64,000 nt of DNA from Bacteroidota bacterium (GTDB lineage: Bacteria; Bacteroidota; Bacteroidia; Chitinophagales; BACL12), in NCBI GenBank assembly GCA_016706865.1, contig JADJIS010000003.1, positions 18,030-82,029 of the forward strand. Direction: 5' to 3'. The notes under the pieces are model-generated. The model ran no database searches, had not been told where the DNA came from, and saw only the letters and a program-made list of their open reading frames with translations. Both the position numbers and the translations under genes were made by a program. This document shows positions 8,751-28,246 of the stretch, in pieces. How positions within the stretch are numbered: position 1 is the stretch's first letter; each line of letters begins with the position of its first letter.

Positions 8751-9145
8751 GAGTCACAGTGGGCAGTGGCAGTAGGCAGTGGCAGTGGGCAGTTTGTAAA
8801 AGTGATAATTGTTCCTTCGAGTAGAACTAATTGGAAGATCGAGAGTTAACAGTTGGCAGTGGTAGTTAAGAGTGGGCAGTCAACAGTGGGCAGTGGGCAG
8901 TTTGTAACATTGATGAATGTTCCTTCGAGTAGAACTAATTGGAAGATCGAGAGTTAACAGTTGGCAGAGGCAGTTAAGAGTGGGCAGTCAACAGTGGGCA
9001 GTGGGCAGTTTGTATCATTGATGAATGTTCCTTCGAGTAGAACTAATTGGAAGATCGAGAGTTAACAGTTAGCAGTGGTAGTTAAGAGTTGGCAGTCAAC
9101 AGTGGGCAGTGGGCAGTTTGTAACATTGATGAATGTTCCTCCGAA
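8751..9145 (+). repeat. 108-bp higher-order tandem repeat, about 3.6 copies
   Basis: Full units lie at 8811-8918, 8919-9026 and 9027-9134. A partial leading unit spans 8751-8810 and there is a short trailing piece. Each unit is a unique ~45 nt (GTTCCTTCGAGTAGAACTAATTGGAAGATCGAGAGTTAAC) followed by about nine AGTNNNN heptamers (agttggc agtggt agttaag agtgggc agtcaac agtgggc agtgggc agtttgt). Confidence 0.9.
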
Positions 9146-9287: not shown

Positions 9288-10610
9288 GTGGCAAAAAAAA
9301 ATGATATGCGGATCGAAAATGTTTTTAGTGTAAAAGATAATCAATCATTTCGCAATCAACTGCTAAATTATTCTTCAGGGTTTGAACATTTTGTTTTTTT
9401 GGATTCTTGTGATAATGCGGTGTATGGGGAGACGGAATTTGATTATTTATTTGCGGCGGGAAATTATGCAAGTTTAATTGCAAATGCCGGAAATGCTTTT
9501 GCGGAATTACAGCAATTTATAGATACCTATAAGGAGTGGTGTTTCGGTTATCTGGGGTATGATCTGAAAAATGAGAGTGAAAAATTATCGTCTAAAAACC
9601 AAGACAGGATCGCGTTTCCGGATATGTTGTTTTTTATTCCGGAGATTATTGTAAGGGTAAAAAATGGGGAAGTTAAAGTTTCAATTCTTTTAGAAAGTTC
9701 CATAACTTCCACTGGTGAAGAAATTTTTAATAATATTTGTGAGGAAAAAAGTGATATAAATTTTGAACGCAATAATATTAATTTATTACCTCGGATACCG
9801 AAAAAAGATTATCTCGAAAAAATAAATAAGATCCGCAAAAATATTATCGACGGTGATGTATATGAATTAACTTTTTGTCAGGAATTTTATAGTGAAAATG
9901 TTAACATAGAACCACTTATTGTTTTTCAGGAATTATGCAAAAAATCCAAAGCTCCCTTTTCCGTTTTATTTCGATGGGAAAATAAATATTTGATCTCCGC
10001 GAGTCCGGAGCGGTTTTTACAAAAGAAGGGCGATACAATTGTTTCTCAACCTATTAAAGGAACATCAAAACGCAGCTCCGATCCTTTGGTTGATGCACAA
10101 TTAAAAACTGAACTCTACAACAGCGAAAAAGACCGCGCAGAAAATGTGATGATAGTGGATCTTGTGCGCAACGACCTTGCACGCATTGGAAAAACCGGAA
10201 CAATTAAGGTTGATGAATTATTCGGAATTTATTCTTTTGAACAAGTGCATCAAATGGTTTCTACCATTTCGGCAAATGTAAAAGAGGATATTTTAATTTC
10301 AGATATTTTAAAAAATACTTTCCCAATGGGCTCCATGACCGGCGCACCAAAAGTGATGGCTATGGAACTAATCGAAAATTACGAAGAATCAAAACGCGGA
10401 TTATTTTCCGGCGCCTTCGGATATATTTCGCCTGAAGGTGATTTTGATTTTAATGTGGTAATTAGAAGTATAATATATGATGCATTGCAACAATATATTT
10501 CCGTTCAGGTAGGAGGGGCAATCGTTTTTGATTCGGTAGCAGAGAAAGAGTATGAGGAGTGCGTGTTGAAGTTGAGTGGGATTGTAGGGGTTTTTGGGGG
10601 TGGGACATAG
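9288..10610 (+). CDS. pabB: aminodeoxychorismate synthase component I (anthranilate/PABA synthase component I family)
   Basis: 440 aa. The chorismate-binding C-terminal domain carries PERFL, IKGT, SEKDRAENVMIVDLVRND and FPMGSMTGAPK motifs. The start is GTG 9288, with ATG 9306 as an alternative. The TAG stop lies inside the downstream heptamer array. Confidence 0.85.
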   Translation: MAKKNDMRIENVFSVKDNQSFRNQLLNYSSGFEHFVFLDSCDNAVYGETEFDYLFAAGNYASLIANAGNAFAELQQFIDTYKEWCFGYLGYDLKNESEKLSSKNQDRIAFPDMLFFIPEIIVRVKNGEVKVSILLESSITSTGEEIFNNICEEKSDINFERNNINLLPRIPKKDYLEKINKIRKNIIDGDVYELTFCQEFYSENVNIEPLIVFQELCKKSKAPFSVLFRWENKYLISASPERFLQKKGDTIVSQPIKGTSKRSSDPLVDAQLKTELYNSEKDRAENVMIVDLVRNDLARIGKTGTIKVDELFGIYSFEQVHQMVSTISANVKEDILISDILKNTFPMGSMTGAPKVMAMELIENYEESKRGLFSGAFGYISPEGDFDFNVVIRSIIYDALQQYISVQVGGAIVFDSVAEKEYEECVLKLSGIVGVFGGGT

Positions 10611-10662
10611 GACATAGGACATACGACATAGGACATACGACATAGGACAGACATAGGACAGT
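10603..10662 (+). repeat. heptamer array (GGACATA/CGACATA) about 8.5 units
   Basis: ggacata ggacata ggacata cgacata ggacata cgacata ggacaga cata ggacagt. The pabB stop (10608-10610) is part of the array. Confidence 0.9.
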
Positions 10663-22849: not shown

Positions 22850-24442
22850 TTATTCTACAACAAAGTTTCTAATGGTTGACTGAGCACCATTTGAAATTTT
22901 AGCCATGTAAACTCCTGCAGGATAAGCACTGATATCAATAGTAGTATTGAAAATAGTACCTATACCTGTATTTTGAGTATATAAAACCTGACCAGCCATA
23001 TTTACAATAGAAATCATTGCATCCTGAGCATCACCAAAGGTTAAACTTAAGTTTAATACATCATCAGCAGGGTTAGGGAAAATGCTGATTGAAGTTAAGT
23101 TGTCAATATCATCAACACCAACACAAATATCTGCTGTTACATTTTTACAATAATCGTAAGCAGATCCACCATAATCTACAGCAAGACAAACCTCATAAGT
23201 ACCTGGTGAACCATAGATATGAGTAGGATTGCGTTCAGTGCTTACAGCACCGTCACCAAATTCCCAGTAATAAGTTGCATCATCAGGAACCGCTGCGAAA
23301 TTGGAAAGATCCGTAAAGTTCTTTTGTAAACTCACGCAGGGAGACGGAGTGGTAGCAAGGAAATTTACTCCTTTTGGTGCTACATACCAGTCAATATATG
23401 CATGTTCCCAGGCAAAAGGATCTGTGTAAGCTAAGGTGCTAACATAAAATCCGTTCCAGCCGGTAGCAGAAATATTATAACGAACATCAGAGCTGGCAAA
23501 ACCATCCTGATTATCAGAATATTCAGACCAAGAAACCGGAGCACTTTCTAAAAGTTCTTCGTTACACAGTAACCAAAAGCGATTCAATGGGTTTTCGATC
23601 AAAAACGGAGGATCAGTGAAATCTAAAAGGGTATCACCTAATTCATACGGTTGACCTGGAATATACTGGAACGCTACTCCTACGAAATGGTCGGGGGAGT
23701 TTTTGTTGATAGTAAGATCCAAAGGAATGGTAACAGAAGCAATGTTGAAACTTGCTGTATCTTCATTATCCATTAGGAAAGTATACTCAGTATATGTTCC
23801 GTTTGGTCTGTTGTATTGATAATTGTATTTTGTTAAGAAAAGACTAATGTCAATTCCTTCATCAAAATCGCCGTTCGCATCATTATCAATGTAGTATCCT
23901 TCCTGATAAACACTGGAATTTGGTGCAAAAACATACACTTTCAAGGTATCAGTATAAGAATCGTTGAACCTGTCATAAAAGTAGTAGAAGCGAACAGAGT
24001 CGACATCAAATGCGTGATCTTCATTAAACCAGTCGTCAGCATCACCAATAACAGTAAAGTTATCATCAACAAAATCAGATACATATTCTGAAATTGGATC
24101 AAAAATATGGGAATATCCATGTCCGTACCAGTAAAAATCTTCCCCGGTTCCAGTTACAACATAAGTTGTAGAATCCGGCCATAGTGGCACTGAAGCCAGA
24201 TTTTCAAGGGTCCATCCGTTTAATGCGTAGTCAACGGCATCGGAGTAATTCACCCAATAATAGTTAAGTGCCCGTTCGCCGGCAGTAGAAACCGGTTTGG
24301 TCACATCAAATTTTGTTGCTGTTTTGGCATTCGAAACCTGCGTATTGCCATATTTAGCATCTGTTTGATAATTTAGAGGAGCTTGTGCGTTAATGGAAGC
24401 TGCAATTATCAAAAATGTAATAAGTAAAAGATTTTTTTTCAT
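22850..24442 (-). CDS. secreted PKD-domain protein with T9SS C-terminal sorting domain
   Basis: 530 aa with a signal peptide. PKD signature YYWEFGDGAVSTERNPTHIYGSPGTYEVCLAV. C-terminal SIFPNPADDVLNL...YPAGVYMAKISNGAQSTIRNFVVE. Confidence 0.8.
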   Translation of the reverse strand: MKKNLLLITFLIIAASINAQAPLNYQTDAKYGNTQVSNAKTATKFDVTKPVSTAGERALNYYWVNYSDAVDYALNGWTLENLASVPLWPDSTTYVVTGTGEDFYWYGHGYSHIFDPISEYVSDFVDDNFTVIGDADDWFNEDHAFDVDSVRFYYFYDRFNDSYTDTLKVYVFAPNSSVYQEGYYIDNDANGDFDEGIDISLFLTKYNYQYNRPNGTYTEYTFLMDNEDTASFNIASVTIPLDLTINKNSPDHFVGVAFQYIPGQPYELGDTLLDFTDPPFLIENPLNRFWLLCNEELLESAPVSWSEYSDNQDGFASSDVRYNISATGWNGFYVSTLAYTDPFAWEHAYIDWYVAPKGVNFLATTPSPCVSLQKNFTDLSNFAAVPDDATYYWEFGDGAVSTERNPTHIYGSPGTYEVCLAVDYGGSAYDYCKNVTADICVGVDDIDNLTSISIFPNPADDVLNLSLTFGDAQDAMISIVNMAGQVLYTQNTGIGTIFNTTIDISAYPAGVYMAKISNGAQSTIRNFVVE

Positions 24443-24538
24443 AACTTTCCTTTTTCAAGATTTATTTTCCATACAAATATACAAATTTCAAATGGAACTC
24501 GGTCATTTGAGTGTCAGTTAACAACACTTTTGATTTGC

Positions 24539-25108
24539 TTAACTATCCTTAAGAAAACACGTTCTGCAGCGGGCTTCATACTCTTCCTTTTCTCCTAACA
24601 GAACCTGTGCATTATTATTTACTTTTCTGTATGAGCGTGATGCAATATTGCCACATTGCATACAGATCGCATGAACTTTGGTGATATAATCAGCTATGGC
24701 CAACAGATCGGGCATGGGACCAAATGGTTTGCCCCGAAAGTCCATATCAAGTCCTGCTACTATAACCCGGGTGCCTCTTACAGCAATTTGTTCACATACT
24801 TCCACAAGTCCGCTGTCAAAAAATTGGGCTTCATCAATACCAACAACATCCACACCCTCACTCAATAAAAGAATATTAAGCGAATTGTTGACCGGAGTGG
24901 AGACAATAAATTTTTCGTCGTGAGAAACAACATTTTGTTCATCATACCTGGTATCAATGGCTGGTTTAAATATTTCAACCTTCAAATTGGCTATGCGGGC
25001 GCGTTTCAGGCGGCGAATCAGCTCTTCAGTCTTGCCGGAAAACATCGATCCGCAAATTACTTCTATCCAACCAAGGCGTTCTCCTTTCAGATGAGGTTCA
25101 ATAAACAT
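24539..25108 (-). CDS. tdk: thymidine kinase
   Basis: 189 aa. The P-loop [14 protein letters not shown], the [10 protein letters not shown] motif, and C-terminal Zn-ribbon cysteines CMQCG...CRTC. Confidence 0.95.
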
Positions 25109-25175
25109 AATTTTGCAAATATTATTTTTGGTACGAAAATACGTTTACAAGTTGGTTAAAACTACATAATTAAAA

Positions 25176-25931
25176 ATGGATACTAAAATCACGGAAATAG
25201 AAATACTGATCGACAAATTGAACTTGCTTTTTGCTTCAGTTAAAAGTGACGGACAACTGGATAAGTTTGAAGTCGAGTTGTTGAAAAAATATGTTCGTCA
25301 ATTGCAGGATAAACTCGATTCGATAAGTGAAGGAACACAACAGGAAAAAAAGCCGGAAATAAATGTTGTTCCTATAATTCCTATTATTCCTGCAGAAAAG
25401 GTAGTGCCAAAAGTTTTACCTGAGGAGATCGTTCCACCGATAATATTTAAAGAAGAGAAACCGGAAAAGGAAATTGTTGCTCCGGTTGAGAAAATAATAA
25501 CGGCTGAAAAAGAGATTCCAAAGGTTATGGTAAATCCATATGCAGAGAAGATAAAAGAGGAAATTAAACCTGTGGTGGAGGAACAAAAAAAACCAATTCA
25601 TAAATTAAAGGAAAATGCAGAAGAGGAACTGAACAAGGCTCTCAATGTGAAATTGGCAAGTAATAAAAAGACCTTAGCGGAAAGAATTCATTCACACAAG
25701 GCAAAGGAAATTACCAGTGTTATCGACCTGAATGATAAATTATTTTTTATTAAAGAATTATTTAAAGGTGATGTAAACGGATATTCCGCTGTACTTAAAA
25801 CAATAAACAGTATGAATTCGTTTGAAGAAGTGAAAAAATATATTCAAAATGAATTATCCTCCCAATACAATTTTTCAGAAGAAGAATCGGTGGAAAGATT
25901 TTTGGAAGTGGTGAAGTTGAAGTTTGAGTAA
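25176..25931 (+). CDS. hypothetical protein with central Pro/Glu/Lys/Val-rich low-complexity linker
   Basis: 251 aa: a coiled N-terminus, a PEKEIVAPVEKIITAEKEIPKV-type linker and a structured C-terminal ~90 aa. Confidence 0.6.
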   Translation: MDTKITEIEILIDKLNLLFASVKSDGQLDKFEVELLKKYVRQLQDKLDSISEGTQQEKKPEINVVPIIPIIPAEKVVPKVLPEEIVPPIIFKEEKPEKEIVAPVEKIITAEKEIPKVMVNPYAEKIKEEIKPVVEEQKKPIHKLKENAEEELNKALNVKLASNKKTLAERIHSHKAKEITSVIDLNDKLFFIKELFKGDVNGYSAVLKTINSMNSFEEVKKYIQNELSSQYNFSEEESVERFLEVVKLKFE

Positions 25932-25937
25932 TGAATT

Positions 25938-26017
25938 GGGACACGGGACATAGGACACGAGACACAGGACATGGGACATGGGACACGGGACATGGGACAC
26001 GGGACACGAGACACGGG
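25938..26017 (+). repeat. heptamer array (GGGACAY) about 11 units; contains a G3N4 x5 quadruplex-type motif
   Basis: gggacac gggacat aggacac gagacac aggacat gggacat gggacac gggacat gggacac gggacac gagacac ggga. Begins 7 nt after the stop at 25929-25931. Confidence 0.9.
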
Positions 26018-26136
26018 AAAACAAAGGGTGGGATTTAGTTAAATTTTGGAAAAAATTTCGGCTCCTATTTTATTACTTCTTATTTGGCAAGTCAAATTAG
26101 AAATTAAATCCCAAATATTACGTTAACACGGCTGTT

Positions 26137-26186
26137 TAATTATCAATTATCAATTGTCAATTGTCAATTATCAATTGTCAATTGTT
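26137..26186. repeat. heptamer array (TRTCAAT) about 6-7 units spanning the waaA stop codon
   Basis: tatcaat tatcaat tgtcaat tgtcaat tatcaat tgtcaat. The waaA stop (26164-26166, minus strand) and its last ~5 codons (QLTIDN) are encoded by the array. Confidence 0.9.
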
Positions 26187-27492
26187 CCAAAGTTGCTTCA
26201 ACAATTTTACGAGTTCCCCCCAGATGTGATTGAACATAATCTTCTGCATCGCTTGCGGCACCTGTATATATAAATTGAAATTGATTCATCAGGTTTATCC
26301 TGTTCAATAGTTCATTGTAGTCGCGTATATCGAATGCAGCATTTCTTTGAGTTAATTCTACAGCTTCATTAAATTTTTTAAATTTCGGCCCAAAAAGTAT
26401 TGGTTTGCCATATACAGCGGCTTCCAGGCAATTATGTATGCCCTTATTAAACCCTCCACCTATATAATTTATATCTGCATACTGATACAGCGATGAAAGC
26501 ATTCCGATATTATCAATGATCAATACTCTTTTCCCGATAAGATCTGCTTCTGTTGCTTTATGCAATTCAGAATAGATCAGAGAGAATTTTTTGTATAATT
26601 TTTTTGTTTTGCGCATATACTTTTCATCAATATTATGCGGAACAATAATGATCTTAAAATTTACAAATACGAGTGAACGATAAAAGGCTTTGGCAAGTAA
26701 TTTTTCATCCTTCGGCCAGGTACTTCCTGCAATTATTACATTGTGATCTTTCACGAACGTAGCAATTTCGGGAAAATCTTTTCTATTTTCTGAAATTGTT
26801 TTCACTCTGTCGAAACGTGTGTCGAAACAAATTTCTGCCGTTGTTATTTTAATGTGCTGAAGCAGTTTTAAAGAATCTTCATTCTGAACAAATATGCGTG
26901 TGTATTTTTTTAAGGCTGTTCTGAAAATGTGTGCATACCATTTAAAAAACAGTTGTTTTTTCCGGAATATTCCCGAAATTAAAAATAAGGGAATGTTTTT
27001 TTTATGTAACGCATTAATATGATGTATCCAAAATTCATATTTTACAAAAATGGCAATATCCGGTTTAACAATAGATATAAATTTTTCTGCATTTGCAGCG
27101 GTATCTGCGGGGAAATAACATACATGATCAGCATAGGGATAATTTTTTTGATTTTCATATCCGGAGGGTGAATAAAATGTAAGTAATATTTTTATTTCGG
27201 GATGTTTCGACTTTAACGATTCCATTACCGTTCTGCCTTGTTCAAACTCACCAAGGGAAGCGCAATGCATCCAAACGATTTTTTTATTGTTGTCCTGAAA
27301 GAGGGGTTTTAAATTTTCAAATAAATTTTTTCTGCCCTTTACCCATAACGATGCTTTCTTATTAAAAAGAGAAGCAATTCTTATTAAGGTGTGATAACAT
27401 CTAACAAAAATGGAGTAATAAAATTGCTGAAAGAGCAACATAGATGCTCCAAACACTATCCCCAGCACAAAAACAATAGCAACTACTTTCAT
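26164..27492 (-). CDS. waaA: 3-deoxy-D-manno-octulosonic acid (Kdo) transferase
   Basis: WMHCASLGEFEQGRTVMESLK plus the glycosyltransferase N- and C-domains typical of KdtA/WaaA. Start placed at ATG 27492, 1 nt after the upstream stop; the ORF track uses TTG 27528. Confidence 0.9.
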   Translation of the reverse strand: MKVVAIVFVLGIVFGASMLLFQQFYYSIFVRCYHTLIRIASLFNKKASLWVKGRKNLFENLKPLFQDNNKKIVWMHCASLGEFEQGRTVMESLKSKHPEIKILLTFYSPSGYENQKNYPYADHVCYFPADTAANAEKFISIVKPDIAIFVKYEFWIHHINALHKKNIPLFLISGIFRKKQLFFKWYAHIFRTALKKYTRIFVQNEDSLKLLQHIKITTAEICFDTRFDRVKTISENRKDFPEIATFVKDHNVIIAGSTWPKDEKLLAKAFYRSLVFVNFKIIIVPHNIDEKYMRKTKKLYKKFSLIYSELHKATEADLIGKRVLIIDNIGMLSSLYQYADINYIGGGFNKGIHNCLEAAVYGKPILFGPKFKKFNEAVELTQRNAAFDIRDYNELLNRINLMNQFQFIYTGAASDAEDYVQSHLGGTRKIVEATLEQLTIDN

Positions 27493-27493
27493 A

Positions 27494-28246
27494 TCAATTT
27501 GTATAAAATTTACGGGTGGGTTGTTCAAAAATAGGTAGGTTCCAACTCAATTTGAAATTAATCATCATATCAATTCTGGTGGCATCATCTTTCATTTGAG
27601 TATCATAGTTGATGGATCTCCGGTTTTGGGTAATGCCTTCTGTTATCTCTATACCTGCACGAAAATTCACAAAATATTTATTGCTGAATAAATAATATCC
27701 GATATACTGGTTAAAGGCAAGGCCATTCGTAAGTCTGTCGTATCCTTTTTTATATTCCTCTGAAAGCTGTGGAACTGCGGTTTCGTCGATATAGATCCAG
27801 ATATTATGCTGCAAAAAACCAATTCCCCCCATAAAAGTTACTCCGGAATTGGGATTAATGCTTAATAAATTGGTGATCTTACCTACCTGTACTGAGGCGG
27901 TAAATCCGCTTTCCCAAAGAATCGGATCATATTGAAGTCCGTCTGTTCCTACTATATATCCCTCTTCATTCTTCAAATTGTTTACAATGGTATCCTCTCT
28001 CACTGCGCTTCCATATATAAACGCTCCGCTAATACTGTATAACCAGTTTTTGTTGGTCTTATACTGATAACCACCCCCAACTATTGCGTGCGGACCGAAT
28101 CGGTCGGCAAGATCAGCAGCAGGAAGGCCTATACCTAGATCAATGGTGATGATATTAGCCGAAACGCAGCTATCATTCAAATTTACCTGTGCGGTCAAAA
28201 TTGAGACAGAACAAACAAGAAGAAGGGTAAAAAAAATATATTTCAT
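27494..28246 (-). CDS. outer-membrane beta-barrel protein, function unknown
   Basis: Start placed at ATG 28246, giving the signal peptide MKYIFFTLLLVCSVSILTAQ. Beta-strand-rich sequence. Confidence 0.6.
   Translation of the reverse strand: MKYIFFTLLLVCSVSILTAQVNLNDSCVSANIITIDLGIGLPAADLADRFGPHAIVGGGYQYKTNKNWLYSISGAFIYGSAVREDTIVNNLKNEEGYIVGTDGLQYDPILWESGFTASVQVGKITNLLSINPNSGVTFMGGIGFLQHNIWIYIDETAVPQLSEEYKKGYDRLTNGLAFNQYIGYYLFSNKYFVNFRAGIEITEGITQNRRSINYDTQMKDDATRIDMMINFKLSWNLPIFEQPTRKFYTN

What the first reader, a model, noticed from the sequence alone, without database searches (positions are those of the whole stretch)
25938..26017. (GGGACAY)11 array with a canonical G3N4 x5 quadruplex motif directly after a stop codon
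Within the array, five consecutive GGG tracts start at 25973, 25980, 25987, 25994 and 26001. They are separated by 4-nt loops (gggacatgggacacgggacatgggacacggg), which satisfies the standard G3+N1-7 x4 quadruplex rule on the plus (sense) strand.

In an AT-rich genome such a motif is very unlikely by chance. It sits 40-70 nt after the stop of the 25176..25931 gene, facing the converging waaA gene. A G4 in the DNA or in the 3' UTR RNA could block readthrough, polymerases or exonucleases.
Basis: partly seen in the sequence, partly recalled or inferred. Interest (0 to 1): 0.5.

Follow-up and report, generated by a model that had tools for sequence, protein, structure and literature searches.

The report
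G4-capable heptamer repeat arm, likely incidental
The G-rich 7-base repeat after this gene is real and could fold into a G-quadruplex, but it is one of about a thousand fast-changing 7-base repeat arrays in this genome, and nothing suggests the quadruplex motif itself is under selection.

Summary
Observation confirmed. Window 25938-26018 holds 11.6 copies of GGGACAY, starting 7 nt after the TAA of a conserved 251-aa gene. Five intact GGG tracts start at 25973-26001.

The functional G4 reading is not supported:
- The genome (uncultured Chitinophagales MAG, 4.8 Mb, 35.7% GC) has about 1025 heptamer arrays of 162 unit types. GGG-bearing units are no commoner than in letter-shuffled units (125 vs 120±36).
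- Non-GGG arrays show the same placement after stop codons on the sense strand (158/180 vs 45/47).
- G-tract positions are no better conserved than loop positions.
- Copy number shows no peak at four.
- Four of the five tracts come from an exact 14-nt duplication.
- The orthologous array in a sister species reads TAGGACA and has no GGG. Fifteen more distant relatives have a spacer of -8 to 80 nt (mostly 0-5 nt) and no array.

The array is the G-rich 5' arm of a mosaic repeat: heptamers, a 15-nt box, a weak hairpin, then pyrimidine-rich heptamers. Strict copies were found only in G000 (33), G002 (31) and G006 (15).

G-rich heptamer repeats placed this way are already described (Rehm 2015). Earlier reports of this scan noted the heptamer arrays on other windows of this genome.

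The parts
25176..25931 (+). Conserved 251-aa hypothetical gene with no Pfam hit. Its stop codon lies 6 nt before the array.
   Evidence: ORF list. No Pfam match. Full-length relatives in 33 of 41 related genomes, convergent with waaA in 19 of the 20 loci fetched.
25938..26018 (+). (GGGACAY) heptamer array, 11.6 units, 8 of them with an intact GGG. It is the G-rich 5' arm of the mosaic repeat element.
   Evidence: It is one of 21 arrays of this unit family and about 1025 heptamer arrays genome-wide. [quoted passage not shown]
25973..26003 (+). Run of five G3 tracts with 4-nt loops (the quadruplex motif). 25973-25986 and 25987-26000 are an exact 14-nt tandem duplication.
   Evidence: sequence; listed at C3:44002-44032; G4 in the ViennaRNA minimum-energy fold.
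26017..26031 (+). Conserved 15-nt box GAAAACAAAGGGTGG that closes the G-rich arm.
   Evidence: 97 hits at up to 2 mismatches vs 16 in the reversed-genome control. 125 vs 25 when C or G is allowed at position 10.
26041..26058 (+). Weak AT-rich hairpin AAATTTT-GGAA-AAAATTT, at the family's fixed offset of 8 nt after the box. Relative to the consensus AAATTTC-GCAA-GAAATTT, the closing pair has changed on both sides.
   Evidence: offset 8 in 35 of 44 copies; fold -8.5 kcal/mol, z -1.3, the same shape as a consensus copy.
26059..26087 (+). Degenerate pyrimidine-rich remnant of the element's 3' arm (CGGCTCC, TATTTTA, TTACTTC, TTATTTG). In consensus copies this arm reads AAACTCC followed by (TTTCTCC)n.
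   Evidence: Comparison with 44 copies.
26123..26144 (+). Leader TTAACACGGCTGTTTAATTATC of the second array, homologous to the same position in sister genome G002.
   Evidence: Alignment. The 16-nt core has 19 copies vs 0 in the control.
26138..26185 (.). Second heptamer array, AATTGTC/AATTATC x6.9. Read on the minus strand it is GACAATT, running outward from waaA, and it contains the waaA stop codon.
26164..27528 (-). waaA (Kdo transferase), convergent with the 251-aa gene.
   Evidence: PF04413, E 1.9e-42.

Best explanation
The array is a slippage-generated, fast-evolving heptanucleotide repeat. It forms the G-rich 5' arm of a lineage-specific mosaic intergenic repeat: G-rich heptamers, a 15-nt box, a weak AT hairpin, then pyrimidine-rich heptamers. 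This material filled a convergent spacer that was ancestrally only a few bases long, which is why the array abuts the stop codon. The quadruplex motif is an incidental by-product. The unit (Y)GGGACA is a one-transition variant of the more abundant (T)AGGACA unit, and a recent exact 14-nt duplication produced four of the five consecutive G-tracts. Shown here: the genome-wide family, the architecture, the lack of conservation, and the absence of any G4-specific signature. Inferred: slippage as the generating process, and absence of a selected function.
For: - Period-7, 14 and 21 repeats dominate the genome: 836, 410 and 130 TRF rows, against at most 127 for any other period. Merged, they give 1025 arrays of 162 unit types, 758 of them intergenic where about 13% of the genome is non-coding.
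- GGG/CCC-bearing units: 125 arrays vs 119.9±36 for letter-shuffled units; 21 families vs 23.9±3.0.
- Mismatch rate, G-tract vs loop positions: GGGACAC 0.133 vs 0.141; GGGTTCT 0.135 vs 0.050; GGGCAGT 0.241 vs 0.084.
- Sibling units without GGG are more abundant: ACATAGG 55 vs ACACGGG 21 arrays, AACTCAG 62 vs AACCCAG 42. Their copy-number distributions are equally monotonic, with no peak at 4.
- Sense-strand placement after stop codons is shared by non-GGG arrays (158/180 vs 45/47, p=0.18).
- Orthologous spacer length: 232 nt here, 260-373 nt in the three closest species, and -8 to 80 nt (mostly 0-5) in 15 others. A quadruplex motif occurs only here.
- G002 aligns in register with TAGGACA/TAGGAAK units and no GGG. 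G006 carries the same element family in the opposite orientation, with a GGAGARA arm at the stop.
- The box plus hairpin is highly conserved: 33, 31 and 15 copies in G000, G002 and G006, and none in 38 other relatives.
- No terminator-like hairpin and no unusual Watson-Crick structure was found.
Against: - GGG arrays are placed very non-randomly (45/47), slightly more strictly than other arrays.
- The GGGACAY unit family persists in five species of the subclade, so it is not a one-off.
- A G4 is thermodynamically plausible.
- The strong polarity of all arrays (G-rich leaving a gene, C-rich entering one) is not what plain neutral slippage predicts. I explain it only partly, by the element's G-arm/C-arm layout.
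- Gene calls were crude ORF calls.
Confidence: 0.75

Rival explanations
1. Functional G-quadruplex. The sense-strand G4, in the DNA non-template strand or in the 3' UTR RNA, pauses or terminates RNA polymerase, or protects the mRNA 3' end from exonucleases.
For: The canonical motif is present. A G4 appears in the ViennaRNA minimum-energy fold. 45 of 47 GGG arrays near gene 3' ends are on the sense strand. The spacer has no canonical intrinsic terminator. Analogous G3N4 heptamer oligonucleotides fold in K+ with a Tm of about 50 °C (PMC4692102).
Against: There is no G4-specific signal in any test. Non-GGG arrays have the same placement. G-tracts are not conserved. There is no enrichment of GGG units and no preference for four tracts. 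The motif is absent from all orthologous spacers. Four of twelve units here already carry G-to-A changes within the tract.
Confidence: 0.08
2. Polar Rho-loading insulator. The relevant strand is the complement. RNA that enters a gene from outside reads the C-rich, G-poor strand, here (GTGTCCC)n, about 77 nt and unstructured, which resembles a Rho utilisation site. That would stop waaA read-through before it runs antisense into the 251-aa gene. RNA leaving a gene reads the C-poor strand and is not affected.
For: The genome-wide polarity is strong. In spacers with at least two arrays the first array is G-rich in 134 of 162 oriented cases and the last is C-rich in 145 of 172; the order G-then-C occurs 50 times and the reverse order is not among the 25 commonest orders printed. 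The outward strand of the arrays is 31% G and 9.8% C. A rho gene is present. Arrays are enriched in convergent spacers (23.6% vs about 10%). The same polarity was reported in Xanthomonas and Nostoc (PMC4692102).
Against: About a third of the arrays have no G/C skew in their unit (367 of 1025), including the partner array at 26138-26185. The arrays are dispensable in 15 relatives whose spacers are near zero length. Array identity turns over between sister species. The polarity follows in any case from the fixed G-arm/core/C-arm layout of the element. The Rho dependence is my inference and is untested.
Confidence: 0.1
3. The functional part is the box-plus-hairpin core, acting like REP/BIME elements as a weak terminator or mRNA 3'-end stabiliser. 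The heptamer arms are variable spacers.
For: The core is highly conserved (many copies with 0-1 mismatches). It sits at a fixed 8-nt offset from the box. Half of the intergenic copies lie in convergent spacers, and 11 of 13 in tandem spacers are co-directional with the genes. The copy here keeps the stem through a change on both sides of one pair.
Against: The hairpin is weak (-8 kcal/mol, z about -1.3) and is not followed by a clean U-tract. At the orthologous spacer G006 carries the element in the opposite orientation. High copy identity fits recent selfish spread equally well. Copies within one spacer are not independent.
Confidence: 0.07

Closest known systems
G-quadruplex-forming heptamer repeats GGGAATC / GGGGAYT of Xanthomonas and Nostoc (Rehm et al. 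2015, PMC4692102)
   Same: Tandem 7-nt units with a G3 tract and a 4-nt loop. Spread over the genome and over-represented between genes. Under-represented in divergent spacers. [quoted passage not shown] Length and sequence vary between close relatives. Function unknown.
   Different: A different phylum (Bacteroidota, Chitinophagales) and a different unit (GGGACAY). Here the G4-capable units are a minority (about 12%) among 162 unit types. There is no preference for four units. The array is attached to a conserved box plus hairpin. No in vitro data exist for this unit.
Cyanobacterial STRR (short tandemly repeated repetitive) heptamers, and the 'long simple sequence repeats' with 7-nt units of Mrazek et al. 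2007. Both are cited from my own knowledge and as summarised in PMC4679880.
   Same: Many intergenic arrays of several heptamer unit types per genome. A patchy phylogenetic distribution. Polymerase slippage has been proposed as their origin.
   Different: The unit sequences differ. The link to a box/hairpin core, and the G-arm then C-arm layout described here, are not part of those descriptions as far as I could read.
E. coli BIME/REP mosaic extragenic elements
   Same: Extragenic mosaics built from a few conserved modules that include imperfect hairpins. They are found mostly at gene 3' ends, occur in variable combinations (here the box is followed either by the AT hairpin or by a GC-rich REP-like hairpin) and are lineage-specific.
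   Different: BIMEs have no heptamer microsatellite arms. An association with a RAYT transposase was not tested here.

Membership tests
Canonical putative quadruplex sequence (G3+ N1-7) x4 | Four or more G3 tracts separated by loops of 1-7 nt on one strand | tested here: met
   Five tracts at 25973-26003 with 4-nt loops.
Canonical putative quadruplex sequence (G3+ N1-7) x4 | K+-dependent folding of the oligonucleotide | not testable with these tools
   There is only a model prediction (ViennaRNA with G4 option, -19.6 vs -15.0 kcal/mol) and the analogy to (GGGAATC)3GGG in PMC4692102.
G4-forming heptamer SSRs (Rehm et al. 2015) | Tandem heptamer with a G3-4 tract, abundant and over-represented in non-coding DNA | tested here: met
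   The three main GGG unit families give 21, 42 and 34 arrays. 758 of 1025 arrays of all types are intergenic.
G4-forming heptamer SSRs (Rehm et al. 2015) | [quoted passage not shown] | tested here: met
   45/47 at 3' ends and 11/14 at 5' ends. This array starts 7 nt after the stop.
G4-forming heptamer SSRs (Rehm et al. 2015) | Clear preference for four units | tested here: not met
   Run-length distributions fall steadily from 2 copies, for GGG units and for their non-GGG siblings alike.
Intrinsic (Rho-independent) terminator | GC-rich stem-loop followed by a T-run | tested here: not met
   0 terminator-like sites in 24400-27600. The fold of 25900-26200 has z = 0.51.
STRR / heptamer long SSRs | Many intergenic tandem arrays of 7-nt units of several types in one genome | tested here: met
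STRR / heptamer long SSRs | Heterocystous cyanobacterial host and the STRR unit sequences | tested here: not met
   The host is Bacteroidota: a T9SS sorting domain is present and relatives are named Chitinophagales MAGs. The unit sequences differ.
REP/BIME-type mosaic extragenic repeats | Conserved modules with hairpins, in variable combinations, extragenic and biased to 3' ends | tested here: met
   The box is followed by the AT hairpin in 44 copies or by the REP-like hairpin in 32. 17 of 34 intergenic copies lie in convergent spacers.
REP/BIME-type mosaic extragenic repeats | Mobilised by a RAYT (TnpA-REP) transposase | not tested
I did not check it.

The most novel reading that the evidence does not exclude
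The heptamer arms are directional transcription insulators. Every array is oriented so that RNA leaving a gene is G-rich and C-poor, while RNA heading into a gene is C-rich and G-poor with one YC dimer every 7 nt. That would make the arrays periodic Rho-loading sites that stop read-through and antisense transcription in a genome with few canonical terminators. On this reading the G4-capable units are one flavour of the outward strand. It would also give a function to the unexplained polarity of heptamer repeats seen in Xanthomonas, Nostoc and here.
Probability: 0.1. Interest if true: 0.7.

Novelty: new member of a known kind. Interest (0 to 1): 0.25.

Why it matters
Taken alone, the array adds a new unit (GGGACAY) and a new phylum to the already described class of quadruplex-capable heptamer repeats. 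The tests here indicate that the quadruplex is incidental.

Two things are of wider use. First, a set of internal controls separates "G4 selected" from "G4 as a by-product of a repeat family": sibling units one transition away, letter-shuffled units, G-tract versus loop conservation, and orthologous spacers. Second, in this clade the heptamer arrays are the arms of a defined mosaic element with a G-rich arm, a core and a C-rich arm. That layout accounts for the orientation-independent "G-rich then C-rich" rule within each spacer. Why the arms are skewed at all remains open. That question can be tested with reporters.

Tried and rejected
- Rfam scan of 25800-26300 at E up to 1: no match.
- Terminator and promoter consensus scan: no terminator. 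The sigma-70-like hits inside the AATTGTC array come from its 21-nt periodicity and are probably meaningless in Bacteroidota.
- Watson-Crick folding of the spacer: not different from shuffles.
- The look-up of encoding contigs found no contig with the identical protein.
- The metagenome scan returned only other species. The best hit, at 81% identity, has over the 500 nt printed the same spacer sequence as G014.
- Chance occurrence was rejected.
- Read-through extension of the protein was rejected: TAA is followed in frame by TGA.
- Pairing between the G-rich and pyrimidine-rich arms was considered and rejected: the units are not complementary (by inspection).

Full report
**1. The observation**

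The sequence and Tandem Repeats Finder show 11.6 tandem copies of GGGACAY at 25938-26018, with 81% matches and no indels. The array begins 7 nt after the TAA (25929-25931) of the ORF at 25176-25931. Eight of the twelve units keep an intact GGG. Four carry a G-to-A change inside the tract (AGGACAC, GAGACAC, AGGACAT, GAGACAC). The segments 25973-25986 and 25987-26000 are an exact 14-nt tandem duplication, so four of the five tracts come from one recent duplication.

The upstream ORF is a real gene. Full-length relatives were found in 33 of 41 related genomes. The facing gene is a Kdo transferase (PF04413). The window lies in a 4.80-Mb, three-contig genome of 35.7% GC. The genome belongs to Bacteroidota: it has a T9SS sorting domain, and its relatives are named as uncultured Chitinophagales MAGs.

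**2. More than chance, but not a solitary motif**

The genome holds 68 non-overlapping (G3+N1-7)x4 motifs. Order-1 Markov simulations gave 7-13 and order-3 simulations gave 2-6. At least 34 of the 68 lie in heptamer arrays of four unit families: GGGTTCT, GGGCAGT, GGGACAC and GGGTTTT. Many of the rest are long poly-G runs.

Periods 7, 14 and 21 give 836, 410 and 130 TRF rows, against at most 127 for any other period. Merged, this is 1025 arrays of 162 canonical units. With crude ORF calls, 758 arrays are intergenic, although only about 13% of the genome is non-coding. Arrays occur in 23.6% of convergent spacers, against 10.4% of tandem and 9.2% of divergent spacers.

**3. Tests of the quadruplex idea**

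- *Enrichment.* Units containing GGG or CCC occur in 125 of 1025 arrays. Letter-shuffled units give 119.9±36. By family the figures are 21 of 162 against 23.9±3.0. There is no enrichment.
- *Conservation.* Within arrays the G-tract positions are not better kept than the loop positions. GGGACAC shows 0.133 vs 0.141. GGGTTCT shows 0.135 vs 0.050. GGGCAGT shows 0.241 vs 0.084. In the last two families the tract is significantly less conserved.
- *Sibling units.* Each G4-capable family has a more abundant sibling one transition away that cannot form a G4. AGGACAT-type arrays number 55 against 21. GAGTTCT-type arrays number 62 against 42 for GGGTTCT.
- *Copy number.* Run lengths fall steadily from two copies, in GGG units and siblings alike, with no peak at four. 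This differs from Xanthomonas (PMC4692102).
- *Placement.* Within 50 nt of a gene's 3' end the G-rich strand is the sense strand in 45 of 47 GGG arrays. The same holds in 158 of 180 arrays without GGG (Fisher p=0.18). At 5' ends the G-rich strand is antisense in 11 of 14 and 74 of 93 arrays. The control shows that this non-randomness belongs to heptamer arrays in general, not to the G4.
- *Structure.* No terminator-like hairpin was found. The spacer folds no better than shuffles (z 0.51). A quadruplex is nevertheless plausible. ViennaRNA with its G4 option places one in the minimum-energy fold (-19.6 vs -15.0 kcal/mol). Oligonucleotides of the same G3N4 layout fold in K+ (PMC4692102).

**4. 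Comparative evidence**

The gene pair (251-aa gene convergent with waaA) is conserved in 19 of the 20 loci fetched from the genus and family. The spacer is 232 nt here, and 294, 373 and 260 nt in the three closest species (G006, G014, G002). In 15 further relatives it is -8 to 80 nt, mostly 0-5 nt. A quadruplex motif occurs only in G000.

The long spacers are all filled with heptamer arrays that start at the stop codon, but the units differ. G006 has GGAGAGA/GGAGAAA, G014 has TGAGTGG/TGAGTAA, and G002 has TAGGACA/TAGGAAK. The G000 and G002 spacers align in register. The repeat units align with each other, and the leader TTAACRCGGCTGTTTAATTATC of the second array is shared. G002 has about 13 units and no GGG at all.

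So the array is probably orthologous between the two species, while the G-tract state is specific to this one. The GGGACAY unit family exists in five species of the subclade, at other loci.

**5. What the array is part of**

[quoted passage not shown] The tail ends in a 15-nt box, GAAAACAAA[C/G]GGTGG, which has 125 hits against 25 in the control.

- In 44 copies the box is followed by a small hairpin (AAATTTC-GCAA-GAAATTT). The offset is exactly 8 nt in 35 of the 44. The hairpin is followed by AAACTCC and then pyrimidine-rich heptamers (TTTCTCC/TCTCTCC).
- In 32 copies the box is followed by a GC-rich REP-like hairpin, which itself has 192 copies against 7 in the control.

In this window the box is at 26017-26031 and the hairpin at 26041-26058. 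The hairpin keeps its stem through a change on both sides of one pair. The 3' arm at 26059-26087 is degenerate.

The strict 49-nt core was found 33, 31 and 15 times in G000, G002 and G006, and not in 38 other relatives. Half of the intergenic copies lie in convergent spacers. In G006 the orthologous spacer carries three copies of the element in the opposite orientation.

Because the element has a G-rich arm on one side and a C-rich arm on the other, the plus strand reads G-rich then C-rich whichever way the element is inserted. This accounts for the genome-wide polarity. In spacers with at least two arrays the first array is G-rich in 134 of 162 oriented cases and the last is C-rich in 145 of 172. 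The order G-then-C occurs 50 times, and the reverse order is not among the 25 commonest orders printed. It also accounts for arrays abutting stop codons, because the ancestral spacers were only a few bases long.

**6. Mechanism**

Best reading (0.75): the array is a slippage-prone microsatellite arm of a lineage-specific mosaic repeat, and the G4 motif is incidental.

Rivals:
- A functional G4 (0.08).
- Polar Rho loading on the C-rich inward-reading strand (0.10). The outward strand is 31% G and 9.8% C, and rho is present.
- A REP-like terminator or stabiliser role for the hairpin core (0.07). The fold is only -8 kcal/mol with z about -1.3.

**7. Known or new**

G-rich heptamer repeats with this placement and polarity, and with in vitro G4 formation, were described in Xanthomonas and Nostoc (PMC4692102). 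Heptamer repeats in general are known from cyanobacteria, Beggiatoaceae and a few Bacteroidetes (PMC4679880). Earlier reports of this scan already noted the heptamer arrays on other windows of this same genome. I re-tested their polarity claim here.

This array is therefore a new member of a known kind. The box/hairpin mosaic to which it belongs did not turn up in the papers I read or in earlier notes searched by sequence.

**Limits**

- Gene calls were simple longest-ORF calls.
- Arrays in one spacer and related genomes are not independent.
- No transcript or strain-level data could be obtained.

Noticed in passing
window 26017-26087, and about 40 to 100 further copies in the genome (e.g. G000 C2:485230-485850, seven copies in tandem): A conserved mosaic repeat: box GAAAACAAACRGTGG, then 8 nt, then hairpin AAATTTC-GCAA-GAAATTT, then AAACTCC and (TTTCTCC)n. 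Strict copies were found only in G000, G002 and G006 among 41 genomes. It appears not to have been noted before in this scan.
   Followed up: partly
window 26139-26181, minus strand: The 21-nt periodicity of the AATTGTC/AATTATC array creates near-perfect sigma-70-like TTGACA-N17-GATAAT matches (11 of 12) pointing towards the 251-aa gene. These are probably meaningless in Bacteroidota, which use a different promoter consensus.
   Followed up: no
window 26164-26185: The last codons and the stop codon of waaA lie inside the heptamer array, so gain or loss of a unit would alter the C-terminal tail. This was also noted by another first-stage finding (e1-2406542).
   Followed up: no
G000 C3:1100347-1100459, C2:856790-856981, C1:751305-751348, C3:1993446-1993481 (outside the window): Very long G or C homopolymer runs, up to 113 nt, some next to heptamer arrays. 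They may be assembly or sequencing artefacts. They inflate the genome-wide count of quadruplex motifs.
   Followed up: no
L002 (G006 C132), the spacer downstream of the orthologous gene: The same spacer in a sister species holds three tandem copies of the mosaic element in the opposite orientation. The AGGACAT-type arm abuts waaA instead of the 251-aa gene. This implies either an inversion or an independent insertion.
   Followed up: partly
window 8757-9144 and 10603-10660: More arrays in the same window. One is a 108-nt higher-order repeat (3.4 copies) built around CAGTGGG heptamers. The other is a GGACATA x8.7 array, the non-G4 sibling of the unit studied here.
   Followed up: no
window 25176-25931: The C-terminal ~75-90 residues of the 251-aa protein (from about residue 160-175) are conserved as far as Bacteroidales and Rikenellaceae MAGs, while the protein has no Pfam match. 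It is an uncharacterised conserved gene.
   Followed up: no
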